The notes beneath the pieces are model-generated. The model was not told the DNA's origin. It searched no databases and saw only the letters and a list, made by a program, of their open reading frames with translations. Source: an uncultured Desulfobacter sp. (GTDB taxonomy: Bacteria; Desulfobacterota; Desulfobacteria; Desulfobacterales; Desulfobacteraceae). From it: 64,000 nucleotides of DNA. Below are positions 9,623 through 27,396 of this stretch, one piece after another; position 1 is the stretch's first letter, and every line of letters begins with the position of its first letter. A program made the translations under genes and the position numbers. The DNA lies in contig OY762069.1 of NCBI GenBank assembly GCA_963665095.1, positions 1,760,001 to 1,824,000 on the forward strand, written 5' to 3'.

Positions 9623-9634
9623 AAGGCCCATCCA

Positions 9635-13097: not shown

Positions 13098-13340
13098 GAC
13101 GCCAGACCGCCACCTGGGGTCATGGATGTATCTTTAATCCCATGGGCCTTATCAATCCGCTTACCCCCGCAGACCTGGTATTTTTTTTAAAATAGACTCA
13201 CTTTGCATCCCTTTAACATAAAAATTCACCCACAATTCGGAAGGCTAATTCGGGGAATATCAGCGCAATAAAAAAGCGTTTCATAATTTCTTCAATCGTG
13301 ATAAGGCCTTAGAAAAATCAACAGTTAAAGCGGGGCTGAT

Positions 13341-14861
13341 ATGGATCAAACCCGAATGGACCGATTTTTCCGATTTTTTTATCAAAAGCAGAACTTCCCG
13401 GCAGGCGGGCCTGAATATGACGCGTTGCTATGCAGCGTGCTGATGGAGGCGTCCCAAGCGCAGGAAGCCTCCATCTGGCAGCTGGCCCGGGACAACCGTC
13501 TTTACCTGAAATACGGTTCCAATATCACGCCCCAGGATGCTTCAGATTTTTCTCTGGCACTAGGTGAGGGCATCACCGGCGCCGTGGCCATGGCCAGAAA
13601 AGCGCTCAAGGTAGAGGATGCCTGGTCCTTTCACAACCATAATCGTCACATGGATACCAAGATTCGTTTCAGAACCTTTTCCATGATTTCCGCGCCCATT
13701 CTGTGTCAGAATCAGCTTTACGGTGTGATTAATCTCTTGAATCATCTTAAAAAAGAAGAGTTCTCCCAACATTGGAAAGAGTTGCTGGCTGCAGCCGGAA
13801 TCATGTATGGGCTGGCATTGAAAAATGCAGGAAAGCTTGTCACGAAACCTGCCGGCTTAAAAGGAAAAGCTGCTGGTAAAGGTGATGGCAAGACTGTGAT
13901 CATCGGGCTGAGCCGGTCTATTCAGGAAGTTCTCCATCTGGCTTTGAAAGCAGGAAAATCCAATATCCCTGTGCTTATTTACGGTGAGACCGGGACGGGA
14001 AAAGAACTGGCTGCCAGGAAAATCCATGAAAACAGCCGGTTCAGGTCAGGTCCGTTTGTCAGTATCAATTGTGCGGCCCTGGCAGAAACGATTTTGGAAA
14101 GCGAGTTGTTCGGTCATGTCAAAGGGGCCTTCAGCGGTGCCGTATCCAACCGTCAGGGAAAGTTTGTCAGCGCATCCAGCGGAACTCTTTTTCTTGATGA
14201 AATTGCCGACATGAGCCTGTCGTGTCAGGCAAAAATACTTCGGGCGTTACAGGAAAAAACCATAACCCCGGTGGGTTCGGATAAAGAGGTGAAGTTCCAC
14301 GCAGCAATTATTGCCGCAACCAATAAAGACCTGGAAAAGCTGGTAAGTCAAGGCCGGTTCAGGCAGGATCTCTACTTCCGGTTATGCGGGCTTGAAATAA
14401 AAATGCCTGCGCTCAGACATCGGGTGTCTGACATTCCTTTGCTGGCACAATATTTTATTCGCAAAGCCTGTGAAGAATCAGGAAATGATTCCCGCGGGCA
14501 ATTGGCGCCCCGGCTATCTGATGACGCAATAACCGCACTGGCAGGTTATTCATGGCCGGGCAATGTCAGACAGTTGGAACAGGCGGTAATGGCTGCCCTG
14601 GCTGTTTGTGAAAACAAAGACATTATGATTTCTGATTTTCCTTCATGGCTGGTGAAAAAAGAACCCGAAGCCACAGATGCTGTTGTCCACAAGGTCGGAA
14701 CCCTGACCAGCCGGCAAAATGAAAAAATTCGTTTTTTAAAAGTGCTGGAGGAGACAAGGTATCCCGGGACCGGCCGGTGGAACATTGCCGCTGCCGCCCG
14801 GAAGCTGGACATGCCAAGAAAGACGTTTGCCTACCAGCTCAAAAAGCTGAACATAAAATAG
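13341..14861 (+). CDS. GAF-domain sigma54-dependent transcriptional activator (bEBP)
   Basis: N-terminal GAF (GEGITGAVA...SMISAPI...GVINLLN); GETGTGKE, ESELFGHVKGAFSGA, LFLDEI, RFRQDLYFRL, WPGNVRQLE; C-terminal Fis-type HTH. Confidence 0.93.
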   Translation: MDQTRMDRFFRFFYQKQNFPAGGPEYDALLCSVLMEASQAQEASIWQLARDNRLYLKYGSNITPQDASDFSLALGEGITGAVAMARKALKVEDAWSFHNHNRHMDTKIRFRTFSMISAPILCQNQLYGVINLLNHLKKEEFSQHWKELLAAAGIMYGLALKNAGKLVTKPAGLKGKAAGKGDGKTVIIGLSRSIQEVLHLALKAGKSNIPVLIYGETGTGKELAARKIHENSRFRSGPFVSINCAALAETILESELFGHVKGAFSGAVSNRQGKFVSASSGTLFLDEIADMSLSCQAKILRALQEKTITPVGSDKEVKFHAAIIAATNKDLEKLVSQGRFRQDLYFRLCGLEIKMPALRHRVSDIPLLAQYFIRKACEESGNDSRGQLAPRLSDDAITALAGYSWPGNVRQLEQAVMAALAVCENKDIMISDFPSWLVKKEPEATDAVVHKVGTLTSRQNEKIRFLKVLEETRYPGTGRWNIAAAARKLDMPRKTFAYQLKKLNIK

Positions 14862-14890
14862 ACCCATAGACCGGACAGGATGACCGACCA

Positions 14891-17800
14891 ATGAAGAAAC
14901 GCTCTTTTTTTCGCAGATGGGGTATCGTTTGTCTTGTTTTTTTTACCGTCAGCCTGATGTTTGAGACGGGATGGACCCAGGACAGCCTTTCCGGTGATTG
15001 GGCAGGCATCATTGTCCGGATACAGGGCCGGGTTGGCATCATATCCTCTCAGGAAAAAGAATGGCAGCCTGCAGGACCGGGCACCCTTCTTCGGCCCGGA
15101 GACATGATCAGCACGGACCAGGACGGATGGGCAGGGATTATCTTTTCCGATGAGTCCATGGTCCAGCTCAATAAAAATTCCCTGCTGATCATTAAACAGG
15201 TCGCACCCAAGGCCGGATGGCTTGAAAAGATAAAGACAGCACCGGGCAGTCATGTTCCGGACCGTTCCGAATATTTATTGAAAAAGGGGCACCTGTGGTT
15301 TCGAAACAAGAATAAAGACCAGCACGTGGACATTCAAACCCCTTATGTCTCCACCAGTATCAGGGGAACCGAACTGGATATCAGGATAACAGACACCCAA
15401 ACCGTTACCGTATCGGTTCTGGAAGGGGAAGTGGCAGCCTTTTTTAATGAAAAGGCAACACGGATCCAAGCGCAGGAACAACTGACTGCCGGTCCCGGAT
15501 CACAAGCCGTCAGGCAGGTTCTGATACAGCCTGCCGGCAGGGTTCAGTGGACCCTGTCGGTGTCATCCACCCTGGACCTGCTGTCATCCGGCACGCCCCT
15601 TTCCACGGCCCTTTCCAGGGCTGTGTCATATATGCTTGACCGTGAGTATGAGGCTGCCATGGCATACTTATCCGGCCTGGACCGTTCCGGACCGGATGCC
15701 TCGCTGATCTGGTCTCTGGAAAGTCTGATCCATCTGATCGCCAATGACACATTCAATGCTCTGGAGGCTGCCGGCAAGGCGGTTCAGGCGGATCAAAAAT
15801 CACCCGTTGCCCGGCTGGTCCAGGCTCTGGCTTATCAGTCCCGGTTTGACCTGGAGCAGGCAGTTGAATCAACCCAGACTGCTCTGGCGCTTAACCCGGA
15901 ATTCATAGGCGCACGCCTGAACCTGGCAAAACTTGCCTTTGGCAGGCAGGATATGGATCAGGCAGATCAGCTTGTCAATGCTGTTCTCTCCCAGGCCCCG
16001 GACAATGGTCAGGCCCTGACACTTAAAGGGTTTTTACTTTTGTCGACCTTTAAAACCGTTGACGCCTTATCAATATTTGAAAAGGCGGTAAAGCAAAATC
16101 AGGCCCGCGGACTGATTTCCGGGGAGCCCCATCTGGGACTGGCTCTGGCCTGGATGCGCCGGGGCTGCATGGCCGACGCCTTTAAGGAAATTACAACCGC
16201 AGTGCTGTTGGAGCCCCAGCGCTCCCTGTTTTTAAGCTATTGGGCAAAAATGCTGTATGAGGCCAGGCGGTTTAAACAGTCCCTTGATATCCTGAATCAG
16301 GCAAAGCTCATGGATCCCGATGATCCCACCCCCTGGCTGTATCAGGCCCTTATTTACAAGGATTTAAACCGCTACCACGAATCGATCCAGGCCATGCAGA
16401 CGGCGATTGAGCTGAACGACAACCGGGCCGTGTACCGTTCGCGCATGCTCCTTGACAAGGATCTGGCAGTTAAAAACGTTAACCTGGCTTTAATCTACAA
16501 GCAATTGGGGATGTCTGAATGGGGCCTGGCCAAGGCAATTAAATCCCTGAAACAGGATAACAATAATTTTGCGGCCCACCGCTTTCTTGCGGATCAACTG
16601 GAATATCTCCAGGGGTACAATGGTTTCGGGGCAAGAAGCGCCCGGCTCAAGGCCTTTCTTATGCAGCCGGCCAACCTCAATACCTTCAACACCTTTAATG
16701 ACTATACCGCGTTTCTGGAAAAGCCGGCCCTTGGCGGCACCCTGGCCGCCTATGTCGGCAACATGGGATACCTGGACAAGGAGCTCAAACTTTTTGGTGC
16801 CATGCCGGACTGGAACATCTCTTTTGACCTCAAGGGGGAAACCTTTGATTCCGACGGCCGGCAGGAGGTTGACTGGCAGGACGCCTGTTTGGTGGAAGCC
16901 CGGGGCAAATGGGACATCAGCCACAGGGATACCCTGTCAGGCAGTTTGTATTACAAGGATGTCAGTACCGGGGACCTGTCCGTGCAGACCAGTTATGACG
17001 AATCTCCTGATTCGCAAACCACTGCGGACTCCCGGCTTGCCAATTTTTCACTGGGGTATCTTAGAAAACTGTCCCTTCATACGGATCTGCTGTTTCATGT
17101 CAAAAGGCAGTATATCAATGAAACAACAGCAAGGACCCACACTTCCGGCAGCGGCGTGACATTCATCTCTGCCTATGAGTATGATTATGTCTACAACACC
17201 AACACCGTCCAGTGGCTGGATGCCCCCTTCACAATCATCCAGGCCATGCAGACCACCCGTGTGGAAACCCATCAGCTTTCCTTTGGCGGCATGTACTATG
17301 AATCAGACCGGGATTACAGGATCACCGCCACCACGGTCACAGACCTGTCCTGGGAATGGTCCGATGATACCTTCAGTTTTACGGAAACCGACACGGTAAA
17401 TTCAAACCTGGTTAAGGACCATCTCAGTGTGTATATCCAGGATATCTGGAATCCTGCAGAAAAGCTGACCCTGGAGGGGGCGCTGTATGTGGACAAGATG
17501 AAAAATGCCAACAGCCTGGAAAAGCTGACCTGGTCCCAGACCCTGGTCAATCCGAGAATCGGCATGACGTATCGTCCCACGCCCCGTGACAGTATCGCCG
17601 TCTCCTGGTACAGGTACCTGGAACCCTATGAATCGGTTGACCGAATAGACAGTATTGACGTGGCCGGTCATGTGCTGTCCACTTTTTATGAAGGGGCCCT
17701 TGTTGAGGAGACCGATCTGGGCTTCCAGCACGAATGGTCAAGGGGCCTTGTTATGACACGGATTTTCAGGAATGAGCCCGACTATACATATAAAACAATG

Positions 17801-18241
17801 GAGAATGATACCCCTATCACCAAAACCCTGAAAAACCGGTATACCGGGGTCGAGACGGCCGTGAATCAGCTTTTGTCCGACGATATGGGGCTTGCGGCCG
17901 GTTATACCTTTTTTGATATTGATCAGGACCAGGCAACACCGGGACTTGAAGGCCGCAACCACTGGGGATGGGCCAGGCTCACCAAGGGGCTGGCCAACGG
18001 CCTGACCCTGTCGGCCGGGATCAGTTACTATCATACAAATTATGAGGATGATGCGGTTGAGGACCAAAGTTTTCTGATCCTTGCTTCGTTTGTTGAATAT
18101 GAACTTCCCAAAAAGCTGGGCAAACTCAGGTTTGAGATAAACAATATCTGCAATGAACACTTTAACGGTACACCACTGTCTGATGCGGCCGGGCTTCTTC
18201 CGGAACGGTTTTTCATGGTCATGGCCCGTGTGAATTTTTAG
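14891..18241 (+). CDS. FecR-domain / TPR-repeat / TonB-receptor-like beta-barrel outer-membrane protein
   Basis: 1116 aa; signal peptide, FecR motif IQTPYVSTSIRGT, TPR helices (DPDDPTPWLYQA, LNDNRAVYRSRMLLDKD), beta-rich C-terminal half ending ARVNF. Confidence 0.85.
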   Translation: MKKRSFFRRWGIVCLVFFTVSLMFETGWTQDSLSGDWAGIIVRIQGRVGIISSQEKEWQPAGPGTLLRPGDMISTDQDGWAGIIFSDESMVQLNKNSLLIIKQVAPKAGWLEKIKTAPGSHVPDRSEYLLKKGHLWFRNKNKDQHVDIQTPYVSTSIRGTELDIRITDTQTVTVSVLEGEVAAFFNEKATRIQAQEQLTAGPGSQAVRQVLIQPAGRVQWTLSVSSTLDLLSSGTPLSTALSRAVSYMLDREYEAAMAYLSGLDRSGPDASLIWSLESLIHLIANDTFNALEAAGKAVQADQKSPVARLVQALAYQSRFDLEQAVESTQTALALNPEFIGARLNLAKLAFGRQDMDQADQLVNAVLSQAPDNGQALTLKGFLLLSTFKTVDALSIFEKAVKQNQARGLISGEPHLGLALAWMRRGCMADAFKEITTAVLLEPQRSLFLSYWAKMLYEARRFKQSLDILNQAKLMDPDDPTPWLYQALIYKDLNRYHESIQAMQTAIELNDNRAVYRSRMLLDKDLAVKNVNLALIYKQLGMSEWGLAKAIKSLKQDNNNFAAHRFLADQLEYLQGYNGFGARSARLKAFLMQPANLNTFNTFNDYTAFLEKPALGGTLAAYVGNMGYLDKELKLFGAMPDWNISFDLKGETFDSDGRQEVDWQDACLVEARGKWDISHRDTLSGSLYYKDVSTGDLSVQTSYDESPDSQTTADSRLANFSLGYLRKLSLHTDLLFHVKRQYINETTARTHTSGSGVTFISAYEYDYVYNTNTVQWLDAPFTIIQAMQTTRVETHQLSFGGMYYESDRDYRITATTVTDLSWEWSDDTFSFTETDTVNSNLVKDHLSVYIQDIWNPAEKLTLEGALYVDKMKNANSLEKLTWSQTLVNPRIGMTYRPTPRDSIAVSWYRYLEPYESVDRIDSIDVAGHVLSTFYEGALVEETDLGFQHEWSRGLVMTRIFRNEPDYTYKTMENDTPITKTLKNRYTGVETAVNQLLSDDMGLAAGYTFFDIDQDQATPGLEGRNHWGWARLTKGLANGLTLSAGISYYHTNYEDDAVEDQSFLILASFVEYELPKKLGKLRFEINNICNEHFNGTPLSDAAGLLPERFFMVMARVNF

Positions 18242-18269
18242 CCGGGAAATCCGGCCGCCGGGATCAAAT

Positions 18270-20060
18270 ATGAAACGAGCGTTTTTCATATGTACAAGTC
18301 TTGTGATCGGCCTGCTTCTGGCCATCTCTTCTCTGGGCACTTTTTTTAACCGGCTGGTTTACGACAATCTGATGATTTTCAGCCATCCGCGGCCCATGGA
18401 ACACCGGATCATTATTGTTGCCATTGATGAGCCATCCTTTTCTTCCATTAAACAACAGTGGCCCTGGGCACGGTCCATCCACGCCCGTCTGCTGGAAGCG
18501 CTTCAACGCTCGGGTGCTGACACCATCGGGTTTGACATATTGTTTGCAGAGCCGTCTCAGGATCCCGGGGCAGACACCTTGCTGGCACAAAGTTTCAAAG
18601 CCCATGGAAATGTTGTCCTGGCGGCGGGCCTGGAGACCAGCGCCTCACACACCCACACAACGCTCATGCAGATCAGGCCGCTGCCGATACTGGAACAGGC
18701 TGCCCGCATGACGGGATTAGATACCATGCCGCTGGATTCCGACGGTTTTTTACGGCAATGTTTTTTAAAGCACAATGGATTAATTAATTTTGGCATTGCG
18801 GCGGCCCGGGCCCACCGCCCCCTGTCCCCGGAATCAGCTGAACGGTCTGGCAAAAAGAACGGTCCCTGTCTGGTGAATTTTTACGGCCCGCCCGGCACAT
18901 TTCCCACGGTTTCCTACTACCAGGCCCTTGACCCGGAGCAATATCTTCCTGAAGGCTTTTTTAAAGGGGCACTGGTGCTGGTGGGGCTTAACCTGCGCAG
19001 CAGTGCAGATCCGAGCTCGGGAAAGGCCGATCACTATGCGACCCCCCATGTGAGGGCAGGCTTTCCTTACATGTCCGGGGTTGAGATTCAGGCCAACATT
19101 ATATCAAACATCCTATCGGGAAAATTCATCCGCAAAGCACCGGTCCTGGGGCAGGCAGCCGCAGCGCTCATGGTCTGGGGCTTGGCCGTGCTGCTGTTTT
19201 TTTCGCCGGTAAAACGCATGATCTTTCTACCTGTTTTAATTGTGTCAGGTTACAGCCTGACAGCGATCTGGCTGTTCCAGCAGCACGGGATTATTTTATA
19301 CCCGGCAATCATCCTTGTTCCGGCCGGGGTAATGGCCCTGTCATCCATTGGATGGATGGCCTGTCAGGCTATAGCGGAAAAAACAATGACAAAGGCGGTT
19401 TTCTCAAAATATCTAAGCCCGGGGTTTGTGGATTATATGTTGGATCCCCCCTGCAAAAACGACCTGATCCTGCCGGCTGAAGGCACGGTCCTGTTTCTGG
19501 ATCTCAAGGATTTCTCGAAGCTTTCACAAACAGTGCCCCATGAACAGTTGATACAGATACTCAGCCGGTACCTTGGCGGATTTTCCGATATTATTATTGA
19601 AAATCACGGACACATCGATAAGATTGTGGGCGACGGCATCATGGCGGTGTGGGGCATGCCAACCCCTTCTGACCGCCATGCCCGGGATGCCTGCAGGGCA
19701 GCACTGGCTATTCTTGACCATTTGCATCAGCTCCAGGCCGAAGATACCCGGGATAAAAAAAATCCTCTGGATATCAGAATCGGTATTAATTCGGGTGTCA
19801 TAACAGCCGGAAATATCAGCGGGAAGTCGTTTTCCGATTTCACTGTTCACGGCATGGAAGTGAATCTTGCCAAGCGCCTGGAACCCCTTAATAAAATTTA
19901 CCAGACCCGCATCCTGATCAGCGAACATACCCGTGAAAGAATCAAAGAGTGGTTTGGATCCCGGCAGGTGGACACCGTCCGGGTAAAGGGATATGACGGT
20001 CCGGTAACCATTTATGAACTGATGCCGCCCGGTACCCCGGGCCTGATAGCAAACCGTTAA
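18270..20060 (+). CDS. CHASE2-domain membrane adenylate/guanylate cyclase (class III)
   Basis: CHASE2 motifs VAIDEPS, WPWARS, GFDILFAE, MSGVEIQAN; three TM helices; catalytic VLFLDLKDFS, IDKIVGDGIMA, VNLAKRLE, VKG. Confidence 0.92.
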   Translation: MKRAFFICTSLVIGLLLAISSLGTFFNRLVYDNLMIFSHPRPMEHRIIIVAIDEPSFSSIKQQWPWARSIHARLLEALQRSGADTIGFDILFAEPSQDPGADTLLAQSFKAHGNVVLAAGLETSASHTHTTLMQIRPLPILEQAARMTGLDTMPLDSDGFLRQCFLKHNGLINFGIAAARAHRPLSPESAERSGKKNGPCLVNFYGPPGTFPTVSYYQALDPEQYLPEGFFKGALVLVGLNLRSSADPSSGKADHYATPHVRAGFPYMSGVEIQANIISNILSGKFIRKAPVLGQAAAALMVWGLAVLLFFSPVKRMIFLPVLIVSGYSLTAIWLFQQHGIILYPAIILVPAGVMALSSIGWMACQAIAEKTMTKAVFSKYLSPGFVDYMLDPPCKNDLILPAEGTVLFLDLKDFSKLSQTVPHEQLIQILSRYLGGFSDIIIENHGHIDKIVGDGIMAVWGMPTPSDRHARDACRAALAILDHLHQLQAEDTRDKKNPLDIRIGINSGVITAGNISGKSFSDFTVHGMEVNLAKRLEPLNKIYQTRILISEHTRERIKEWFGSRQVDTVRVKGYDGPVTIYELMPPGTPGLIANR

Positions 20061-20063
20061 TGT

Positions 20064-20113
20064 GGCCAAAACGGCAATAATGCCCTTGCCGCTTTGGCCG
20101 CTCAGGCCAAAAC
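20064..20113. promoter_or_regulatory. 14-bp inverted repeat plus an extra half-site; candidate bEBP enhancer (or weak terminator)
   Basis: GGCCAAAACGGCAA-N8-TTGCCGCTTTGGCC (one mismatch), further GGCCAAAAC at 20105-20113; no U-tract; about 120-165 nt upstream of a sigma54-like promoter. Confidence 0.45.
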
Positions 20114-20229
20114 CAAAATCCTTTCGGGACAGTTCTTCTTTTATCCATAAAATTTATAACCGCGACCAGGCAAGGCTTTCGGGTCATAACAGCCTTGAAC
20201 CGACCAGGGTCCGTACTCTCATTAAAACA

Positions 20230-20245
20230 TGGCATATAATTTGTA
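20230..20245 (+). promoter_or_regulatory. Candidate sigma54 (-24/-12) promoter
   Basis: TGGCATATAATTTGTA versus consensus TGGCACG-N4-TTGCW; correct spacing, -12 GC replaced by GT. Confidence 0.55.
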
Positions 20246-20336
20246 CTGCTTAAGCAAATAGGATATCGCCGTTTTCAGGCGGTTAGTTTTTTAAAGCAGG
20301 CTTTTTTATGGTTTTTTATTTTAAATGGGGGAGAAT

Positions 20337-20888
20337 ATGAAACGGTTAATTTTTTTGATTTTAAGTATATTGTTATTATTGATTATCAGCACCCCTTTGT
20401 GCGCAACAACGATTTTTTATAATGTCAGCAATACCGGTGGGAATACATGGGAGTTCAGTTATACGGTTAAAAACGACAGCCTTAGTGTAGATATTGAAGC
20501 ATTCAGTATCTTTTTTGATTATGGGTTGTACGAAAATATTGCAGTAACCGGGGTTGCCGATGACTGGGAGGCCGACGGGGTTGAACCGGACGATATTTAC
20601 GGGTATGAGGATGACGGATACTATGACGCATGGACCTATGATGCTGCAATTGCAGTGGACCAGTCATTATCCGGTTTTTCCGTCAGCTTTGATTGGCTTG
20701 GTGATGCAAATGAAACCCCCGGTGTTCAATATTTCGAGATTTATGATGTGGATTATAGTGTGCTTGATGAAGGATATACGCAACTGGCAGATCAGGGCGG
20801 CAGCGATCCTGTACCTGAACCCTCAACCTTGATTTTATTTGCCACGGGTCTTCTGGGTTATTTGTTGTCCCGAAGGAGGGTATCATGA
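20337..20888 (+). CDS. PEP-CTERM sorting-domain surface protein, acidic
   Basis: Signal peptide; Asp/Tyr-rich body; C-terminal VPEPSTLILFATGLLGYLLSRRR. Confidence 0.93.
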   Translation: MKRLIFLILSILLLLIISTPLCATTIFYNVSNTGGNTWEFSYTVKNDSLSVDIEAFSIFFDYGLYENIAVTGVADDWEADGVEPDDIYGYEDDGYYDAWTYDAAIAVDQSLSGFSVSFDWLGDANETPGVQYFEIYDVDYSVLDEGYTQLADQGGSDPVPEPSTLILFATGLLGYLLSRRRVS

Positions 20889-23800
20889 GGGTTACCCGCA
20901 TCAAATCATATTTTTTATTAGTGTTGTTTATCCTGTTATGCTCGGCAACAGCGGCCCAGGCTGTTGACCCTGTCATTACAGGATACGAATTAACGGACCG
21001 GACCCGGGTGAGCCGGACCGATTATCAGTATACTTATAAAGCTGTTGCGCAGAATTCAGGCACTGATGACTACACAGATGTCAGTGCTGTGCTGACAAGT
21101 TCTGTATCCACCACTGTTGTGGTTGATGATTCATTGACATTTGGAGATATCTCCTCCGGCCAGAGTGTTCAAAGCAGTGATACTTTTTCAATCCGTGTTA
21201 ACAGACGCTATTCTTTTGATGAGACTGCACTGACCTGGACTTTTTCTTATGAAACTGTAACAGATCCGGGCGATACCGGAACACCGGATCCCAAAGATGT
21301 TGCGCCGCAATTTAAGATGACGGCAACAACGGGTTTCATGGATGGCATCGCCTTTCTCTATACAGGAGCCAATCCGATTCAAACCGGAGTGGCTGAAGAC
21401 ACCATTGTCGAAAAACGCGCCGCTGTTATCCGCGGTATGGTGAAAGACAATACAGGCTCCCCCATCAAAGATGTTATAGTGACGGTTCTTAATCATGGTG
21501 AATATGGCCAGACACTCACACGTGCTGACGGTGAATATGATCTTGCCGTAAATGGTGGCGGGACGTTCACTCTAAATTTTTTTAAATCCGGATACCTTAC
21601 ATCCCAAAGAACAGTTGTGCCTGACTGGCAGGACTACACTGTTGTCAACGATGTTGTTCTCGTTGCCGTAACCGGGGAAATTCATACAATATCCTTTGGT
21701 ACAGGAAGCGAACTTCAGACAATCCTGGGCAAGTATGAAAGCGATGATGACGGTGACCGCAAGGCCATTCTTCTGGTCCCCGGCGGGACAAGCGCAACCC
21801 TTCATTATCCGGACGGAACAGAACAAGCCCTTGCAAATGCCCATATGAGCATTACAGAATACACTGTCGGCGACCTGGGACCAGAAGCCATGCCAGCAGA
21901 TCTACCCGCTTCCAGCGCCTATACATATGCGGCGGAATTCCTTGTGGAGGAAGTCGCGGCCAGGGGAGCAACTTCGGTTACTTTTGATCAGCCCCTGTAT
22001 GGCTATATTCAAAATTTTCTTGGGTTTCCAACAGGCACACCTGTTCCGGCAGCCTATTATGATCGGACAACAGGGGCCTGGATCCCCACCGCTGACGGCC
22101 GGGTCATTGAAATTTTAAGCATAACCGAAGGTGTCGCTCAAATTGATGCCAATGGCGACGGAACAGTTGACAACGGCATTTTTAATGCGGACACAGCAGA
22201 TGATGGAATTGTTGAAATTGATTTGGGCATGACAACTGAAGAACGCCGGGAACTGGCTGCCAACTTCCCGGCAGGCCAGACCATCTGGCGCGTGCCTGTG
22301 CAGCACCTTTCTCCCCATGATTGGAATTTCCCATATTATCTTACATCATTATCCGGATCAGATAAGCCGACAATGCCCCACCCGTCACACGGCACAACAC
22401 CGACAGACACGCCAAAAAAAATTGACGACTATGGAATCATTGAAGTTGAGAATCAGATCTTCCGGGAAAGTTTGGGACTGACAGGGACACCCTTTACCAT
22501 CAATTACTCCAGCGGCCGCGTTGATGGGAACAAAAGCGCTGCCACGTTGAGCATTCCCCTCACCGGCAGCACACTGCCGTCCGGCCCTCTTAAAGATGTT
22601 AAAGTCACCATCTCGGTTGCCGGTCAACGGCATGTGTATTCTGTTGTGGACTCAGCGCAGGGAATTTCGACAAATATGACTTACTCCTACACCTGGGACG
22701 GTTTGGACGCCTATGGACGTAAGGTACCTGGAGAAGTTCCGGTCACGGTGGATTTATCCTATGTGTATGAAGGGTATTACAGCATTCCAAGAACGTATGC
22801 GGGCTGGTACAGTTTTTCCCTTCCCGGCTATGACCAGGATACCATTCTTATCCCGACAAGAGAGGATTTTTACCAGACCCAGACTTTTGAAACAACATTT
22901 GACGCCTCCCAGTTGTGGTATGCAAAAGAACAGGCCCTTGGTGGATGGACCATTGACGCCCATCATGCGTACGACCCCAATGGACGGACACTCTACAGGG
23001 GGGACGGGGCCCAATACAGTGCTGTTAATTACGGTGTCGGTGTTCTTGAACGCCTGGCCGGAACCAACACGTCGTTAGAGGCAACCGGTGACGGCGGGCC
23101 GGCTTTGGAAGGAACAATTGAGGATTTTCTATCTGTTGCTGTTGCGTCGGACGGCGCCATCTATTTTTCAGACACCAATACCATCCGTAAGATCGATCCC
23201 GACGGCATCATTACAACAGTCGCGGGTCAGGCCTACAGTGGCTACGATGGAGACGGCGGACCGGCAGAGAACGCTTCATTTGCTGGTCCCTTCGGTCTTG
23301 CCTTCGGCCCTGATGACAGTCTTTATATCGCTGATACAGACAATGGGGTTGTTCGAAAAATCAATCCTGGCGGCATCATCACGACAGTTGCCGGAGATCC
23401 TGACTTTGAGTTTGCCCAAAACAATGCCGTCCCGGATTTTAATATCTGCCTGGTCTTTCAACAGCCCAAAAAGTTTTTACAATGGGTTGCGGCAAAAATA
23501 GAGTCTGTCTTTCATATCAAAGAAGCCATCGCTGCGTTTGCCCAAACAGATTACGGTGACGGCAGACCGGCAACAGAGGCATACCTGGAATCTCCAACAG
23601 CAGTTGTTGTTGATAAAGACGGCAGCCTGTACATCGGGGAGTATTGTAAAATCCGCAAAGTTGCCACGAACGGAATCATCACAACCTATGCCGGATCTGA
23701 TGTCGGAGGCTCTTCAGACGATAATATCCCTGCAACAGACGCATCCATCCCCCAAATGCAAAGCATGGCCATCGGACCTGACGGCAGCGTTTATTATACA

Positions 23801-26800
23801 CAAGTCGGATGGCTGCCCAATCAACATCTTGTCCGCAGAATTTACCCTGACGGCATTGTCACAACCATTGCCGGCGGGGGAACATACCAAAACCCTGACG
23901 GTCAACCGGCAACAGAGGCGCTGCTCGACTATCCGGAAAATCTTGCTGTCACAGATGACGGCAGCGTATATTTTTCAGATACTTCATCCAGAGTTTTTAA
24001 AATCAACACCCGCGGAATTATCTTGACCGTTGCCGGCGGGGGGGCAACACCATTCAGTGAAGCCGAAGGTGCCCAGGCCCCTGCCATTGATTTTTCAGAA
24101 TTTTATTTACGGCCGGCCCTGAACCCTGACGGCGAGCTTATCATCTGCGCGGGGTACGTGCCTCCCTGGGGGACCACATCGCTTTCAGATTTATACAATT
24201 CCGTCTGGAAATTGAAAGAAAATTCTTTGCCGGAAAGATCCGGTGATGCGGATATTGTTATTCCAGCCCGGAACGGAATGGGCCTTTACATTTTTGATGC
24301 CGGTGGACGACATCTGGAAACCCGGAATGCATTAACAGGCGCTGTCACCTTATCTTTCGGATATGACAGTGACGGCCGGCTTATAACGGTCACAGATGCC
24401 GACAACAACGTCACAGCCGTCAACCGCGATGGCTCAGGAAATCCGACAAGTGTCACAGCCCCGGCCGGACAGACAACAACAGTCAACGTGGATGCCAACG
24501 ATTATCTGGAAACCATAACCAATCCGGCCGGGCAAACCGTGACGTTTGATTATACATCCGGCGGGCTTTTGACAAGCATGTTCCGGCCAAAAGGAAATGA
24601 GTATACGTTTGAATATGACAGCATCGGAAGGCTGATCCGTGCCGACAAGCCGGACGGCAGCTTTGACACGCTGACACGAAAGTCGTTGAATGATGACAAC
24701 AGCAGCAGTTACGAAGTCGTCAAAACAAACAGCCTGGGGCACCAGACCACTTACCGGACCGAATATCTCGAAGACGGGGATGTCCAAAAAACAGTGATTC
24801 AACCCGACGGGCTGCAAAACCTGACCTTGCAGAGAACCGACGGCAGCGAGGAACACACCTCCCCGGACGGTGTTGTCACATCCATAACCCGGTTGCCCAG
24901 TCCGCGTTTCGGCATGCTTGTTCCGGTGATCAGCAATGTGACGGTCACAACCCCGGATGGCATTGAAACCATTGTCGAATCCACACGGGAAACAACACTG
25001 TCCGACGCCTCGGATCTAACAAGCGTTACTTCCTTGATTAATACAACAACCGTCAATGGCCGCACGTTCACGGAAAGTTATGACGGTTTCACCCGTCAAT
25101 ACACCCGAACAACGCCAACAGGACGGACCAGCACCATGACCATTGACGAAGTCGGACGCATCATTGAATCACAAACGAGCAGCTTTGAAGCCGCTGTCTA
25201 CGCATATGACAGTGATGACGGGCAGCTCTCCTCTGTCACTCAGGGGGCCCGTTTTGTTCAATATGGATATGACGAGTTTAACAACCTCAACAGCATCACC
25301 AACGTGATGGGTGCTTCAGAAACGCTCAGCCATACGGCTTCCGGAAAAATCGATGTTCATACCAACGCCCTTGGCAACACAGTCGGTTTTGACTACGGGC
25401 TGAACGGCAAAGTAACAGGCGTGACCACCCCCCGGGGCCATCTGCATCAATATGGATATAATCCTGTTGATATGATGGAAAGTTACACAGATCCTTCCGG
25501 CAACTCAGCGGCATATGAGTACGATGGTGAACAGAATACAACTCAAATCACCCTGGCCGGCAACAAGACAATGACATTCGGATACGATTCCATGGGTCGG
25601 ACAACCAGCATCACAGATCCATCCGGGGTTGTCACAACATCCACTTTTGATGCTGTCGGCCGGTTAAGCGCTATTGAACGTGCAGGAGAAAAGGTTGAAT
25701 ACAGTTATGACGGACACCTCCCGGTTCAAACCGACATATCCGGATCTGTTGCACAACGTATCGGCGTTATATACAATAACAACATTCGCAGGGAATCCGT
25801 GACTATAGACGGCGAAACTGTCAACTATACCTATGACGACGATGGTCTAGTGACCCAGGCCGGGGAGTTGATTATCTCCCGAAATACGGAAGACGGGTTG
25901 ATACATTCCCTGACTTTAGGCCAGACCACTGTAGATTTCAACTATAACGCTTACAGTGAACAAACAGCCTGTACGGTGTCCCATTCAGGAACAACCATGT
26001 TTTCACAAAACTACAGGTGGAATGACCTGGGACAAATCACAGAAAAACAAGAATTCTACGATTCAACAACAAACACCTATGAATACGCCTATGACCTTAT
26101 TGGACAACTGACCGGCGTTGAAAAAGATGACAGCCTTGTTGAAGCGTATTCCTATGACGCCAACCATAACAGAAACCCGTCAGATGCGACATATGACAAT
26201 CAGGACCGGCTTATTTCCGATGGCGGAACAAGTTACGCCTATTGTGATAACGGGTTTCTGACTGAGTCCGTCAGCACCGGAGGCACAACAAGGTACAACT
26301 ACATAGAAACCGGCGAACTCACATCTGTTTCCCTGAGCGACGGCACTGACGTCACTTATATATATGATGGAATGGGACGACGGATTTTAAGAGACCTTTC
26401 AGGGCTTTCCACGCAAAAATTTGTGTATCTTGATCAGCTCAGCCCGGTTGCGGAACTTGATGCCTTTAACAATGTTGTCAGCCGCTTTATTTACGCGACA
26501 GGCGACAATGCGCCTGATTATATGGTCCGGAACGGCATCAATTATCTCTTTGTCAAAGACCAGATCGGAAGCATTCGGCTGGTTGTTAATACATCGACAG
26601 GGAACGTTATTCAAAAAATCGACTACGATGCATTCGGGCAGGTGCTCAGCGATTCAAATCCCGGGTTCCAGCCCTTTGGTTTTGCCGGAGGCATGTATGA
26701 CCCGGAAACCGGTCTTGTCCACTTTGACAGACGGGATTATGACCCAATCACCGGACGCTGGACAGCCAAAGACCCGATCCGGTTTAACGGAGGCAGCACA

Positions 26801-27322
26801 AACCTCTACGCTTACGCAAATAACAATCCTGTTTCCTTCAAAGATCCATCCGGCTTAAAATCTGAATCCACATACAGCGATATTATCGATAAAGCCGACC
26901 AATCCGCCAATTATGAAGGCATTGTTTGGGATGGCGCTGAAATGATCGCCAAGGATGGTTTCAAAAATGCCTCAGCCGGAGGATTCTTCAAAACATTGGG
27001 AAACGTGACAGGTGTCCTTTCTGCAGGTACCAGTTTTCTGAAATACGTGGATACCGCCAATGCCTATTATTACGATGGGAAAGGATCGTTGTGGGATGTG
27101 GCCCACGACTTTGTCTCTTTGGGAGCGAATACGGTCGGGCTGATTCCTTTACCGCCCACACAGATGGCATGCAAAGCTTTAAGTTATCTCGATACCGCGT
27201 CAACACCGATCATGACAGCAATGTTTACGCAATACTACATTCAGCAATCCAGTAATTTGCCAACCGCACCATCCCAGGCGCAAATGACCGGCCCCGGGTA
27301 TGGAAACGGCCCAAAACCCTAA
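20885..27322 (+). CDS. Secreted teneurin-like protein (carboxypeptidase-regulatory-like domain, NHL repeats, YD shell, RHS core, C-terminal domain)
   Basis: 2145 aa; Sec signal ...SATAAQA; GWTIDAHHAYDP motif; repeated GDGGPA/RKIDPDGIITTVAG NHL units; many YD repeats; RHS core PFGFAGGMYDPETGLVHFDRRDYDP...NNPVSFKDPSGL. Confidence 0.9.
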   Translation: MRVTRIKSYFLLVLFILLCSATAAQAVDPVITGYELTDRTRVSRTDYQYTYKAVAQNSGTDDYTDVSAVLTSSVSTTVVVDDSLTFGDISSGQSVQSSDTFSIRVNRRYSFDETALTWTFSYETVTDPGDTGTPDPKDVAPQFKMTATTGFMDGIAFLYTGANPIQTGVAEDTIVEKRAAVIRGMVKDNTGSPIKDVIVTVLNHGEYGQTLTRADGEYDLAVNGGGTFTLNFFKSGYLTSQRTVVPDWQDYTVVNDVVLVAVTGEIHTISFGTGSELQTILGKYESDDDGDRKAILLVPGGTSATLHYPDGTEQALANAHMSITEYTVGDLGPEAMPADLPASSAYTYAAEFLVEEVAARGATSVTFDQPLYGYIQNFLGFPTGTPVPAAYYDRTTGAWIPTADGRVIEILSITEGVAQIDANGDGTVDNGIFNADTADDGIVEIDLGMTTEERRELAANFPAGQTIWRVPVQHLSPHDWNFPYYLTSLSGSDKPTMPHPSHGTTPTDTPKKIDDYGIIEVENQIFRESLGLTGTPFTINYSSGRVDGNKSAATLSIPLTGSTLPSGPLKDVKVTISVAGQRHVYSVVDSAQGISTNMTYSYTWDGLDAYGRKVPGEVPVTVDLSYVYEGYYSIPRTYAGWYSFSLPGYDQDTILIPTREDFYQTQTFETTFDASQLWYAKEQALGGWTIDAHHAYDPNGRTLYRGDGAQYSAVNYGVGVLERLAGTNTSLEATGDGGPALEGTIEDFLSVAVASDGAIYFSDTNTIRKIDPDGIITTVAGQAYSGYDGDGGPAENASFAGPFGLAFGPDDSLYIADTDNGVVRKINPGGIITTVAGDPDFEFAQNNAVPDFNICLVFQQPKKFLQWVAAKIESVFHIKEAIAAFAQTDYGDGRPATEAYLESPTAVVVDKDGSLYIGEYCKIRKVATNGIITTYAGSDVGGSSDDNIPATDASIPQMQSMAIGPDGSVYYTQVGWLPNQHLVRRIYPDGIVTTIAGGGTYQNPDGQPATEALLDYPENLAVTDDGSVYFSDTSSRVFKINTRGIILTVAGGGATPFSEAEGAQAPAIDFSEFYLRPALNPDGELIICAGYVPPWGTTSLSDLYNSVWKLKENSLPERSGDADIVIPARNGMGLYIFDAGGRHLETRNALTGAVTLSFGYDSDGRLITVTDADNNVTAVNRDGSGNPTSVTAPAGQTTTVNVDANDYLETITNPAGQTVTFDYTSGGLLTSMFRPKGNEYTFEYDSIGRLIRADKPDGSFDTLTRKSLNDDNSSSYEVVKTNSLGHQTTYRTEYLEDGDVQKTVIQPDGLQNLTLQRTDGSEEHTSPDGVVTSITRLPSPRFGMLVPVISNVTVTTPDGIETIVESTRETTLSDASDLTSVTSLINTTTVNGRTFTESYDGFTRQYTRTTPTGRTSTMTIDEVGRIIESQTSSFEAAVYAYDSDDGQLSSVTQGARFVQYGYDEFNNLNSITNVMGASETLSHTASGKIDVHTNALGNTVGFDYGLNGKVTGVTTPRGHLHQYGYNPVDMMESYTDPSGNSAAYEYDGEQNTTQITLAGNKTMTFGYDSMGRTTSITDPSGVVTTSTFDAVGRLSAIERAGEKVEYSYDGHLPVQTDISGSVAQRIGVIYNNNIRRESVTIDGETVNYTYDDDGLVTQAGELIISRNTEDGLIHSLTLGQTTVDFNYNAYSEQTACTVSHSGTTMFSQNYRWNDLGQITEKQEFYDSTTNTYEYAYDLIGQLTGVEKDDSLVEAYSYDANHNRNPSDATYDNQDRLISDGGTSYAYCDNGFLTESVSTGGTTRYNYIETGELTSVSLSDGTDVTYIYDGMGRRILRDLSGLSTQKFVYLDQLSPVAELDAFNNVVSRFIYATGDNAPDYMVRNGINYLFVKDQIGSIRLVVNTSTGNVIQKIDYDAFGQVLSDSNPGFQPFGFAGGMYDPETGLVHFDRRDYDPITGRWTAKDPIRFNGGSTNLYAYANNNPVSFKDPSGLKSESTYSDIIDKADQSANYEGIVWDGAEMIAKDGFKNASAGGFFKTLGNVTGVLSAGTSFLKYVDTANAYYYDGKGSLWDVAHDFVSLGANTVGLIPLPPTQMACKALSYLDTASTPIMTAMFTQYYIQQSSNLPTAPSQAQMTGPGYGNGPKP

Positions 27323-27356: not shown

Positions 27357-27396
27357 GAGGGGATACGAGATAAATAATTCGTATCCCCTCATTTTT
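27357..27396 (+). terminator. Rho-independent terminator after the teneurin-like gene
   Basis: GAGGGGATACGA...TCGTATCCCCTC 12-bp stem followed by ATTTTT. Confidence 0.7.

What the first reader, a model, noticed from the sequence alone, without database searches (positions are those of the whole stretch)
13341..27322. Apparent complete trans-envelope signalling circuit (FecR-TPR barrel, CHASE2 cyclase, GAF-sigma54 activator) wired to a PEP-CTERM plus teneurin-like payload
Seen: five co-directional genes; the first three are separated by under 30 bp, followed by an inverted repeat, a -24/-12-like promoter and two translationally coupled (ATGA) exported proteins. Known: a FecR/TPR/barrel protein paired with a CHASE2 cyclase resembles Sinorhizobium NsrA-CyaK, whose output is the Crp-like Clr; GAF domains can bind cyclic nucleotides; PEP-CTERM genes are usually driven by the PrsK/PrsR two-component system. 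Inference: a surface signal raises cAMP, which the GAF-bEBP reads to switch on a surface protein and an RHS-type protein. I do not know of a description of this wiring.
Basis: partly seen in the sequence, partly recalled or inferred. Interest (0 to 1): 0.88.

Follow-up and report, generated by a model that had tools for sequence, protein, structure and literature searches.

The report
Outer-membrane sensor, cAMP, sigma-54 switch
This gene cluster encodes an outer-membrane FecR/TPR barrel protein, a CHASE2 adenylate cyclase and a sigma-54 activator whose GAF sensor domain most resembles cAMP-binding GAF domains. It likely uses cAMP to switch on the neighbouring operon for a PEP-CTERM surface protein and a teneurin-like RHS protein, a wiring my literature searches did not find described.

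Summary

**Conservation.** The bEBP, FecR/TPR-barrel and CHASE2-cyclase triad is intact and co-linear in 6 of the 10 lineages that carry an ortholog of this GAF-bEBP. It is decayed in a seventh and rearranged in an eighth.

**The GAF domain.** Its best solved matches are cyclic-nucleotide-binding GAFs: Lcd1 bound to cAMP, PDE10A, PDE2A and CyaB2. Three other GAF-bEBPs from the same genome do not behave this way.

**The cyclase.** It keeps every class III catalytic residue, with a Lys/Thr specificity pair.

**The inverted repeat.** It is unique in the 6.9 Mb genome. It recurs beside the triad in other lineages, about 130-155 bp upstream of sigma-54 promoters, so it looks like an enhancer rather than a terminator.

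**The output.** A ~200 aa PEP-CTERM gene is the neighbour in 5 of 10 lineages. The teneurin-like gene is a neighbour only here.

**A telling second locus.** The closest teneurin-like homolog, in genome G060, also sits beside a FecR/TPR-barrel and CHASE2-cyclase pair. There a Crp-like regulator and a CRP box replace the bEBP.

**Weak points.** The window's -12 element is GT rather than GC, and no binding or expression data exist.

**Verdict.** This is a plausible, undescribed variant of NsrA-CyaK-type signalling.

The parts
13341..14861 (+). Sigma-54 enhancer-binding protein (506 aa): N-terminal GAF of the cyclic-nucleotide-binding type, AAA+ domain (Walker A GETGTGKE, GAFSGA loop), and a C-terminal Fis-type HTH
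   Evidence: Pfam, translation, ortholog alignment. PDB sequence searches, with controls.
14891..18241 (+). Exported FecR-domain + TPR + C-terminal TonB-dependent-transporter-like beta-barrel protein (1116 aa), with no plug domain detected
   Evidence: The paralog L006 and the G024 homolog both hit PF00593. Model and Foldseek.
18270..20060 (+). CHASE2 (periplasmic) + class III adenylate cyclase (596 aa). Metal-binding D411 and D455, K451, T525, N532 and R536 are all present.
   Evidence: best solved match is P. aeruginosa CyaB, 3r5g, E 1.3e-27; these residues are invariant or nearly so in 21 CHASE2 cyclases.
20064..20099 (.). Inverted repeat of TTGCCG(Y)TTTGGCC, the predicted enhancer (UAS) for the bEBP, 131-166 bp upstream of the -24 element
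   Evidence: Unique in the genome. The same motif lies next to the triad in L017/L054, L018, L020 and L181.
20230..20245 (+). Sigma-54-like promoter TGGCAT-N5-TTTGTA. The -24 GG is present; the -12 element is GT rather than GC.
   Evidence: Weak on its own.
20265..20283 (+). Small hairpin followed by a T-run in the predicted leader. Role unknown.
20337..20888 (+). Small acidic exported PEP-CTERM protein (183 aa from the ATG at 20337, which has a GGGGGAG Shine-Dalgarno; the ORF opens at 20325)
20885..27322 (+). Teneurin-like YD/RHS protein (2145 aa): signal peptide, TTR, weak FN-plug, NHL, YD shell, Rhs-associated core ending in ...KDPSGL, then about 155 aa of unknown family. Its start overlaps the PEP-CTERM stop (ATGA).
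27357..27390 (+). Intrinsic-terminator-like hairpin (13 bp stem followed by a T-run) that closes the output operon

Best explanation
The cluster encodes an outer-membrane FecR/TPR barrel protein, an inner-membrane CHASE2 class III adenylate cyclase and a GAF-type sigma-54 activator. These are predicted to form one pathway: an envelope or surface signal would raise cAMP, cAMP would likely bind the activator's GAF domain, and the activator would then turn on the adjacent PEP-CTERM and teneurin-like operon.

**Shown by the sequence and the calls**
- The domain architectures and the operon layout.
- Intact catalytic residues in the cyclase.
- The GAF domain's closest solved relatives are cAMP/cGMP-binding GAFs.
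- Synteny of the three regulator genes across lineages.
- A genome-unique inverted repeat that recurs beside the triad in other lineages.
- Translational coupling of the two output genes.

**Inferred**
- The barrel protein's periplasmic FecR/TPR part contacts CHASE2, by analogy with S. meliloti NsrA and the CHASE2 cyclases.
- The product is cAMP, from the Lys/Thr specificity pair.
- cAMP controls the bEBP's ATPase or oligomerisation.
- The bEBP binds the repeat at 20064-20099 and activates the sigma-54 holoenzyme at 20230-20245.
- The sign of the control (activation rather than de-repression).
- The nature of the signal, which is unknown.
- The PEP-CTERM protein would be processed by the genome's single exosortase.
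- The teneurin-like protein would be exported as an adhesin or toxin-delivery shell.
For: 1. **Synteny.** The bEBP-FecR/TPR-cyclase order is found in L017, L018, L019, L020 and L036. Identities to the window are 49-57% (bEBP), 40-53% (FecR/TPR) and 40-51% (cyclase), with overlapping or abutting genes. L054 and L046 hold parts of the same arrangement. G024 has all three genes within 10 kb but rearranged. G143 has a truncated bEBP, cyclase remnants and a PEP-CTERM gene. Overall, 8 of 10 bEBP lineages have a CHASE2 cyclase beside the bEBP and 7 of 10 have the FecR/TPR barrel.

2. **GAF type.** The single sequence against PDB gives CyaB2 at 3.7e-8, PDE2A GAF-B at 5.5e-8 and Lcd1 at 4.8e-7, but the bEBP GAF of Nlh2 only at 0.38. 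A profile of 6 orthologs gives Lcd1 (5w10, titled "in complex with cAMP") at 2.9e-18, PDE10A GAF-B at 1.5e-12, PDE2A at 3.7e-10 and Nlh1/2 at 3e-4 or worse. As controls, three other GAF-bEBPs of the same genome gave NifA/Nlh as top hits, or no hits at all.

3. **Cyclase.** D411, K451, D455, T525 and N532 are invariant in 21 CHASE2 cyclases and R536 is nearly invariant. The best solved match is the CyaB adenylate cyclase.

4. **Enhancer.** T[TC]GCCNTTTTGGCC occurs once in 6.9 Mb. The pattern taken from the window alone, with <=2 mismatches, falls in the intergenic region next to the bEBP or its cargo in L017/L054, L018, L020 and L181. The expectation is 0.1-0.5 hits per whole locus. Spacing to the sigma-54 promoters is about 130-155 bp in the window, L018 and L020. 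The HTH region is strongly conserved among orthologs.

5. **Output.** Good sigma-54 promoters precede the neighbouring PEP-CTERM genes: TGGCATGGTCTCTGCT in L018 and L046, and TGGCATGCAACTTGCC in L179. L036's divergent gene has TGGCATCAAAGTTGCT.

6. **Regulator swap.** In G060 a FecR/TPR barrel (37% identical) and a CHASE2 cyclase (39%) sit next to a Crp-like cNMP_binding+HTH_Crp_2 gene and the closest teneurin-like homolog (40-41%). The only TGTGN8CACA site in 19.9 kb lies 132 bp upstream of that teneurin-like gene. Other FecR/TPR-cyclase loci carry a cNMP-binding MscS channel, a stand-alone cNMP-binding protein, or Metallophos/MBL-fold proteins.

7. **Host capacity.** The genome has one rpoN and one exosortase.
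Against: - The window's -12 element is GT rather than GC, and a match of that quality occurs about 1805 times per Mb.
- The cargo is not orthologous across lineages. The five small PEP-CTERM proteins share little beyond the tail, apart from L018/L046/L020.
- No homolog of P0002 or of the teneurin-like protein lies in any of the 85 FecR/TPR loci, apart from one NHL-only match in L027.
- The teneurin-like gene accompanies the triad in 1 of 10 lineages.
- The window-derived motif was not found beside the triad in L019, L036 or L046 at <=2 mismatches.
- In L017/L054 and L181 the motif lies upstream of the bEBP itself, which speaks for autoregulation as much as for cargo control.
- Two bEBP orthologs, G334 and G089, show no cyclase nearby, though both sit on short or cut contigs.
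- The NKFDE signature of cNMP GAFs (recalled, not from a call) is only partly kept: N and F align, while K, D and E do not (alignment).
- Fold comparison does not separate cNMP GAFs from others. The PtsP GAF ranks first.
- No ligand-binding, DNA-binding or expression data exist.
Confidence: 0.5

Rival explanations
1. The sensor pair makes cAMP for other receptors in the cell. The GAF-bEBP would respond to a different ligand, or to none, so its place in the operon would reflect shared regulation rather than direct cAMP sensing.
For: bEBP GAF domains are known to read other signals; the NifA, NorR and FhlA examples are recalled rather than taken from a call. The NKFDE signature is incomplete (alignment; the motif itself is recalled). 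The fold search does not discriminate between GAF types. The genome has 4 further CHASE2 proteins and about 58 bEBPs.
Against: The sequence and profile searches rank cAMP/cGMP GAFs far above bEBP GAFs, and three control bEBP GAFs do not behave this way. The bEBP is translationally linked with the cyclase pair in 6 lineages. In G060 the same slot is filled by a Crp-like cNMP-binding regulator.
Confidence: 0.2
2. The bEBP does read cAMP, but its target is its own operon or distant genes. The PEP-CTERM and teneurin-like operon would simply lie next door and use another promoter.
For: The window's -24/-12 match is weak. The motif lies upstream of the bEBP gene itself in L017/L054 and L181. The cargo differs between lineages, and the teneurin-like gene is unique to the window among the triad loci.
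Against: In the window the repeat lies downstream of the cyclase, 131-166 bp upstream of the only -24/-12-like site that faces the output genes. No copy lies upstream of the bEBP. Small PEP-CTERM genes with good sigma-54 promoters neighbour the triad in L018, L046 and L179. Sigma-54-type promoters or REC-bEBP genes precede other teneurin-like genes: L140, L141, L143, L149 and L152.
Confidence: 0.15
3. The messenger is cGMP or another nucleotide rather than cAMP, and the rest of the pathway is unchanged.
For: Several of the best GAF matches bind cGMP, such as PDE2A, PDE5 and PDE6. The S. meliloti relatives are called AC/GCs in PMC13001267 (passages seen).
Against: The cyclase carries the Lys/Thr pair typical of adenylate cyclases. 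That assignment is recalled; the residues themselves are seen. Its best solved matches are adenylate cyclases. The best profile match of the GAF is the cAMP-bound Lcd1.
Confidence: 0.1

Closest known systems
Sinorhizobium meliloti NsrA with the CHASE2 cyclases CyaK/CyaD1/CyaD2 and the Crp-like regulator Clr
   Same: An outer-membrane FecR+TPR+barrel protein is encoded immediately upstream of a CHASE2 class III cyclase. On pSymB a 1235 aa FecR+TPR ORF overlaps the start of a 649 aa CHASE2-cyclase ORF. cAMP then reaches a transcription factor (PMC13001267, passages seen).
   Different: Only the FecR domain (25% identity) and the TPR region align with P0001. The output is a surface-protein operon next door. 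The pSymB record carries no gene names, so calling those ORFs NsrA and CyaK rests on the literature. Garnerone 2018 itself was not held.
Lcd1 of Leptospira interrogans (GAF-GGDEF, cAMP-activated diguanylate cyclase; PDB 5w10)
   Same: Its GAF domain is the best solved match to the profile of this bEBP's GAF, at E 2.9e-18. The PDB title reads "in complex with cAMP". It is described as cAMP-binding in bioRxiv 10.1101/600031 and PMC11800159 (passages seen).
   Different: The output domain is GGDEF rather than a sigma-54 AAA+ ATPase with an HTH.
CHASE2-cyclase clusters of Campylobacterota (PMC9239204) and LysM-FecR + CHASE2 histidine-kinase operons of Burkholderia (PMC5192318)
   Same: A FecR-domain envelope protein is paired with a CHASE2 sensor. 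In Campylobacterota the cluster also holds a TPR protein and a phosphodiesterase (passages seen). The window's own genome has comparable variants.
   Different: The passages read mention no GAF-bEBP, no sigma-54 link and no defined output genes in those clusters.
FecA-FecR-FecI trans-envelope signalling
   Same: A FecR-family domain works with a TonB-dependent-transporter-type barrel to carry an outside signal inward.
   Different: Here the FecR domain is fused to the barrel and no plug was detected. The relay would run through a cyclase and a second messenger, not through an anti-sigma/ECF sigma pair.
PrsK/PrsR control of PEP-CTERM/exosortase genes
   Same: A sigma-54 activator would drive PEP-CTERM protein genes. 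The window's bEBP scores 257 bits against TIGR02915, below that model's cut-off of 502.6.
   Different: There is no receiver domain and no histidine kinase. The input domain is a GAF.
Bacterial teneurin-like YD proteins (Jackson et al. 2018, PMC5851990)
   Same: The architecture is TTR, FN-plug, NHL, YD shell and Rhs core followed by a 100-150 aa variable C-terminus. The paper describes these as widespread in bacteria and of unknown function (passages seen). Here 82 of 401 genomes of the class have a match.
   Different: The passages read describe no regulatory context for these proteins. Here, and in G060, the gene sits beside a cAMP-generating envelope sensor.

Membership tests
NsrA-type outer-membrane sensor paired with a CHASE2 cyclase | Signal peptide, FecR domain, TPR repeats and a C-terminal outer-membrane beta-barrel in one protein | tested here: met
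   Homologs hit PF00593.
NsrA-type outer-membrane sensor paired with a CHASE2 cyclase | The gene lies immediately upstream of a CHASE2 class III cyclase | tested here: met
   A 28 bp gap in the window. The same layout is seen on S. meliloti pSymB and in many of the loci.
NsrA-type outer-membrane sensor paired with a CHASE2 cyclase | Sequence homology to the S. meliloti protein over its whole length | tested here: inconclusive
   Only the FecR domain (25% identity, E 4e-13) and the TPR region (E 1e-8) align. The barrel does not.
NsrA-type outer-membrane sensor paired with a CHASE2 cyclase | Required for signal-dependent cAMP synthesis | not testable with these tools
   This needs genetics or biochemistry. 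The complex prediction could not be run.
Bacterial enhancer-binding protein (sigma-54 activator) | AAA+ Sigma54_activat domain with Walker A/B and a GAFTGA-type loop, plus a DNA-binding HTH | tested here: met
   PF00158 at E 3.9e-64 and HTH_8. GETGTGKE, LFLDEI and GAFSGA are present in the sequence. The motif names are recalled.
Cyclic-nucleotide-binding GAF domains | Closest sequence relatives are experimentally cNMP-binding GAFs | tested here: met
   with controls.
Cyclic-nucleotide-binding GAF domains | NKFDE signature (recalled from the literature) | tested here: not met
   In the alignment to PDE2A GAF-B, N and F are kept while K, D and E are replaced. Membership is therefore claimed as "resembles", not as shown.
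Cyclic-nucleotide-binding GAF domains | Binds cAMP or cGMP | not testable with these tools
   This needs purified protein.
Class III adenylate cyclase | Two metal-binding Asp, a substrate Lys plus Asp/Thr, and transition-state Asn and Arg | tested here: met
   D411, D455, K451, T525, N532 and R536. The role assigned to each residue is recalled.
Sigma-54 promoter | GG at -24 and GC at -12, spaced 10 nt apart | tested here: not met
   GG is present, but the -12 doublet is GT, and the score is common by chance. The neighbouring promoters in L018, L046, L036 and L179 do have GG-N10-GC.
PEP-CTERM/exosortase substrate | C-terminal PEP motif, a transmembrane helix and a basic tail, with an exosortase in the genome | tested here: met
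   PF07589 at E 4e-8 and TIGR02595. One exosortase at 4.35 Mb.
Bacterial teneurin-like YD protein | TTR, FN-plug, NHL, YD shell and Rhs-associated core in one chain | tested here: met
   The FN-plug hit is below the cut-off (19.2 bits against 27.8).
RHS polymorphic toxin with cognate immunity | A recognisable C-terminal toxin domain and an immunity gene directly downstream | tested here: not met
   The C-terminal 156 aa have no Pfam family, and the only lead is a sub-threshold atlas hit. No downstream ORF precedes the terminator at 27357-27390.

The most novel reading that the evidence does not exclude
This is a previously undescribed class of cAMP-activated sigma-54 enhancer-binding protein. 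With a FecR/TPR outer-membrane barrel and a CHASE2 cyclase it forms a self-contained, three-compartment pathway (outer membrane, inner membrane, DNA) that deploys exosortase-sorted surface proteins. In this genome it also deploys a bacterial teneurin-like protein. That would be the first regulatory handle on what bacterial teneurin-like proteins are for.
Probability: 0.45. Interest if true: 0.8.

Novelty: new variant of a known kind. Interest (0 to 1): 0.68.

Why it matters
cAMP signalling in bacteria is read almost always through Crp-family proteins. A GAF-type sigma-54 activator as the cAMP receptor would add a new kind of effector and link second-messenger signalling to enhancer-dependent transcription.

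The cluster also offers a compact, testable model for how FecR/CHASE2 envelope sensors work. These are widespread, with NsrA studied genetically in one rhizobium.

It further gives bacterial teneurin-like proteins, relatives of the animal teneurins whose function in bacteria is unknown, a defined inducing pathway. That pathway could be used to find out when and why they are made.

The regulator swap is a natural experiment that makes the model directly testable. The same sensor pair and the same cargo class are wired through Crp in G060 and through a GAF-bEBP here.

Tried and rejected
- **Complex prediction.** A FecR domain (residues 35-235) with CHASE2 (residues 26-292) job was never accepted because the queue was full. 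There is no result either way.
- **Expression data.** No RNA holder was listed for window:18000-22000. Only DNA contigs were offered, and no reads were laid.
- **Earlier findings.** The look-up returned nothing.
- **P0002 against teneurin-like N-termini.** P0002 has no significant similarity to the N-terminal parts of 20 teneurin-like homologs, nor to the G060 protein. The idea that it is a split-off N-terminal module was dropped.
- **C-terminal 156 aa of the teneurin-like protein.** There is no Pfam hit. The atlas gave a colicin-like cluster at 0.87, below the tool's lead threshold, so it is not used.
- **Second cluster of the loose motif at window 42044-42066.** It lies inside a 662 aa ORF (41269-43257), read by eye as a chemoreceptor and not scanned, so it is taken as chance.
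- **CRP-box pattern in the window.** There are two matches, both far from the locus.
- **Alternative -12 for the window promoter.** The next GC lies 15 nt from the GG, which is too far (read).
- **More distant GAF-bEBPs.** Six loci with GAF matches at E 1e-16 to 1e-21 showed no cyclase within about 8 kb by tblastn. They were not pursued or Pfam-scanned.
- **Conservation in the genus.** Only 2 of 24 congeners gave matches to P0001, and both were partial. The locus is accessory.
- **Literature.** No paper describing a cAMP-binding GAF-bEBP or a CHASE2-sigma54 link appeared in the searches. For one search only the 15 listed titles and abstract starts of 33 hits were seen. No paper joined teneurin, bacterial and PEP-CTERM.

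Full report
**Observation.**
The window is positions 1,760,001-1,824,000 of a single-contig 6.9 Mb genome. Five co-directional ORFs lie at 13341-14861, 14891-18241, 18270-20060, 20325-20888 and 20885-27322. The first three are separated by 29 and 28 bp. The last two overlap in ATGA, with a GGAGG eight bases upstream.

- GAF + Sigma54_activat + HTH_8
- FecR + TPR
- CHASE2 + Guanylate_cyc
- PEP-CTERM
- TTR_TEN, TEN_NHL, TEN_YD-shell, RHS repeats and Rhs_assc_core

The likely start of the PEP-CTERM gene is the ATG at 20337, which follows GGGGGAG. A 13-bp-stem terminator at 27357-27390 closes the output operon, and no ORF lies between it and the teneurin-like stop.

**The barrel.**
The C-terminal half of the 1116 aa protein has no Pfam family of its own. 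Three results support a barrel:
- A paralog elsewhere in the genome and a congener's homolog both hit TonB_dep_Rec_b-barrel.
- An AlphaFold model built on 14 homologs shows a beta-rich FecR part (39-210), an all-helical TPR part (225-608) and 26 long strands (614-1115). Mean pLDDT is 67.5, and higher in the strands.
- Foldseek matches that half to TonB-dependent transporters such as FhuE, PqqU and FoxA, at E 5e-14 to 1e-10.

No plug domain was detected. The protein ends in ...RVNF.

**Is the pair a known kind?**
Yes. S. meliloti pSymB carries a 1235 aa FecR+TPR ORF whose stop overlaps the start of a 649 aa CHASE2-cyclase ORF. This fits the published NsrA and CHASE2-cyclase system, in which the cyclases make cAMP on sensing a plant signal through the outer-membrane barrel NsrA, and Clr reads the cAMP (PMC13001267, passages seen). 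The original NsrA paper was not held. Only the FecR and TPR parts align with the window's protein.

FecR-domain proteins beside CHASE2 sensors have also been noted in Campylobacterota (PMC9239204) and Burkholderia (PMC5192318); passages were seen for both.

The window's own genome has five CHASE2 proteins:
- two preceded by FecR/TPR barrels
- one by a small FecR protein plus an OmpA-like protein
- one by an M48 peptidase
- one followed by a GAF-HD-GYP protein

**Conservation of the triad.**
The locus is accessory. Only 2 of 24 congeners gave matches to the barrel protein, and both were partial.

An alignment of the closest homologs found 22 loci in genome contigs and 63 in metagenome contigs. 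tblastn with the five window proteins gave these results:
- The bEBP-barrel-cyclase order is present in L017, L018, L019, L020 and L036.
- L054 and L046 hold parts of it. Their identities and neighbours match L017, so I count L017, L054 and L046 as one lineage.
- None of the 85 loci holds a homolog of the PEP-CTERM protein or of the teneurin-like protein. The single exception is an NHL-only match in L027.

A profile of the GAF region, searched over 401 genomes of the class, separates seven ortholog-level matches (E <= 2e-53) from everything else (E >= 1e-21). The new ones are these:
- **G143:** a truncated bEBP, fragments of a CHASE2 cyclase and a PEP-CTERM gene.
- **G024:** a congener with the bEBP, a FecR/TPR barrel and a CHASE2 cyclase within 10 kb, but rearranged.
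- **G334:** a 5.7 kb contig with no cyclase.
- **G089:** the downstream side is cut after 628 bp.

Tally over the 10 lineages:

| Feature beside the bEBP | Lineages |
|---|---|
| CHASE2 cyclase | 8 of 10 |
| FecR/TPR barrel | 7 of 10 |
| ~200 aa PEP-CTERM gene | 5 of 10 |
| Teneurin-like gene | 1 of 10 |

The family is rare. The word-indexed search of 5.8 billion proteins with the GAF region returned 7 other GAF-bEBP clusters and one GAF-GGDEF protein.

**What the GAF domain looks like.**
Searched against all solved chains, the window's GAF region gives CyaB2 (3.7e-8), PDE2A GAF-B (5.5e-8) and Lcd1 (4.8e-7). The bEBP GAF of Nlh2 scores only 0.38.

A profile of six orthologs sharpens the ranking: Lcd1 2.9e-18, PDE10A GAF-B 1.5e-12, PDE2A 3.7e-10 and Nlh1/2 3e-4 or worse. 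PDB entry 5w10 is titled "Lcd1 GAF domain in complex with cAMP ligand", and two papers describe Lcd1 as cAMP-binding.

Three other GAF-bEBPs of the same genome served as controls. One hit NifA and Nlh1/2 first, with cNMP GAFs at 3.6e-4 or worse. Two hit no cNMP GAF at all.

The segments GEGITG and FRT align with the corresponding PDE2A, CyaB2 and Lcd1 segments. That these segments line the nucleotide pocket is my recollection. The recalled NKFDE signature is only partly kept.

The model of the domain is confident (pLDDT 87.6). However, fold comparison does not separate GAF subtypes.

**The cyclase.**
The best solved match is the catalytic domain of P. aeruginosa CyaB (1.3e-27). In an alignment of 21 CHASE2 cyclases from these loci, D411, K451, D455, T525 and N532 are invariant and R536 is nearly so. 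The Lys/Thr pair points to ATP as the substrate; that assignment is recalled.

**The repeat is probably an enhancer.**
The arms at 20064-20077 and 20086-20099 are 93% complementary and are not followed by a T-run. The motif T[TC]GCCNTTTTGGCC occurs once in the whole genome.

I took a pattern from the window alone (TTGCCGNTTTGGCC, <=2 mismatches). Its hits fall in the following places, against an expectation of 0.1-0.5 hits per whole locus:
- L017/L054: about 114 bp upstream of the bEBP
- L018: upstream of the PEP-CTERM gene
- L020: in the divergent intergenic region
- L181: about 100 bp upstream of the bEBP

It was not found beside the triad in L019, L036 or L046. Looser variants are visible by eye in L036 and L046.

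The spacing from the motif to the -24 element is about 130-155 bp in the window, L018 and L020. The HTH region of the orthologs is highly conserved.

**Promoters.**
The window's TGGCATATAATTTGTA has GT at -12, and matches of that quality are common. By itself it proves nothing.

The neighbouring genes in other lineages have better sites:
- TGGCATGGTCTCTGCT in L018 and L046
- TGGCATCAAAGTTGCT in L036
- TGGCATGCAACTTGCC in L179
- L020 shares the TTTGT form seen in the window

The genome has one rpoN.

**Cargo.**
The small PEP-CTERM proteins of L018, L046 and L020 are homologous to each other and CBM_4_9-like. Those of the window and G143 share little with them beyond the sorting tail. L036 has a divergent 857 aa lipoprotein-like gene, and L019 has an SBBP propeller protein. 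The genome has one exosortase.

Teneurin-like proteins are common in the class, with matches in 82 of 401 genomes. Bacterial ones were described as widespread and of unknown function, with variable 100-150 aa C-termini (PMC5851990, passages seen).

I examined 20 upstream regions of homologs:
- None had a PEP-CTERM gene directly upstream.
- Three had a REC-sigma54 activator directly upstream: L143, L149 and L152.
- Five had strong -24/-12 sites: L140, L141, L143, L149 and L152.
- One, G060, had a FecR/TPR barrel and a CHASE2 cyclase.

**The G060 locus.**
G060 holds the closest teneurin-like homolog (40-41% identity). The locus L155 reads as follows:
- FecR/TPR barrel, 37% identical to the window's
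- CHASE2 cyclase, 39% identical
- on the other strand, a cNMP_binding + HTH_Crp_2 protein
- the 2569 aa teneurin-like gene

The only TGTGN8CACA in the 19.9 kb locus is TGTGACTTGGGACACA, 132 bp upstream of the teneurin-like start.

So the same sensor pair and the same cargo class are wired through a Crp-like regulator in one lineage and a GAF-bEBP in another. I take this as the strongest single argument that the bEBP occupies the cAMP-reader position.

Other FecR/TPR-cyclase loci carry a cNMP-binding MscS channel in the bEBP's position (L022), a stand-alone cNMP-binding protein (L072), or Metallophos or MBL-fold proteins next to the cyclase (L078, L056, L057).

**Mechanism and odds.**
I commit to this chain: envelope signal, then FecR/TPR barrel, then CHASE2 cyclase, then cAMP, then GAF-bEBP bound at the repeat, then the sigma-54 promoter, then the PEP-CTERM and teneurin-like operon. 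The joint probability is about 0.5.

The architectures, the synteny, the GAF relatedness, the catalytic residues and the recurrence of the motif are shown. Every physical interaction, the ligand, the sign of control and the signal itself are inferred.

The teneurin-like protein's C-terminal 156 aa have no family and no immunity gene follows. I therefore do not file it as a polymorphic toxin system.

**Novelty.**
The sensor pair and each domain are known kinds. A cAMP-type GAF on a sigma-54 activator, encoded with the cyclase that would feed it and with an identifiable enhancer and output, did not turn up in my literature searches. I rate it a new variant of a known kind.

Noticed in passing
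L006 (G000:C1:3226001-3244000), 5724-11050: A second FecR/TPR barrel (1097 aa, 35% identical, hits PF00593) and CHASE2-cyclase pair in the same genome. It is flanked by two metallo-beta-lactamase-fold genes and a SelO gene, with no bEBP beside it.
   Followed up: partly
L007 (G000:C1:2148001-2164000), 6354-9573: A small FecR protein (170 aa), an OmpA-like protein and a CHASE2-HD-GYP protein in a row. The FecR-CHASE2 pairing appears here with a different output.
   Followed up: no
L009 (G000:C1:3966001-3984000), 6816-12918: A CHASE2 cyclase followed by a GAF-HD-GYP protein and a caspase-domain protein. This is another possible cAMP-to-GAF link in this genome.
   Followed up: no
window 20265-20283: A short hairpin followed by a T-run lies between the -12 element and the PEP-CTERM start. 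TATCGCCGTTTT at 20264-20275 also repeats half of the enhancer motif. It could be a leader attenuator or an extra binding site.
   Followed up: no
L020 16352-16367 (- strand): A perfect sigma-54 promoter, TGGCACGCATTTTGCA, lies upstream of two HSP20 genes that are convergent with the cyclase of that triad locus.
   Followed up: no
L179 (G143:C1:6192000-6211900), 12572-15611: A decayed copy of the system. The bEBP lacks its HTH, only CHASE2 and cyclase fragments remain, and there is no barrel gene. An intact PEP-CTERM gene and a good -24/-12 site are still present.
   Followed up: partly
class-wide search: About 140 of 401 genomes hold proteins whose GAF matches this GAF profile at E 1e-15 to 1e-21. 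Most are ~500 aa bEBPs and some are ~800-900 aa proteins. Six loci examined had no cyclase within about 8 kb.
   Followed up: partly
L027 4334-8353 and L019 3540-5612: Large secreted propeller proteins sit next to FecR/TPR barrel genes in other lineages: an NHL/SBBP protein with a TTR-like domain in L027 and an SBBP protein in L019. Their domains recall the teneurin-like cargo.
   Followed up: no
G000:C1:3.755-3.809 Mb: A cluster of further RHS/YD-repeat ORFs, up to 2478 aa, lies elsewhere in the genome.
   Followed up: no
window 30104-32875 (- strand): A PilJ-PAS-GGDEF-EAL protein is encoded about 3 kb downstream of the teneurin-like gene.
   Followed up: no
window 38640-38655 (- strand): The only perfect TGGCAC-N5-TTGCW match in the window lies inside a 680 aa + strand ORF.
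   Followed up: no
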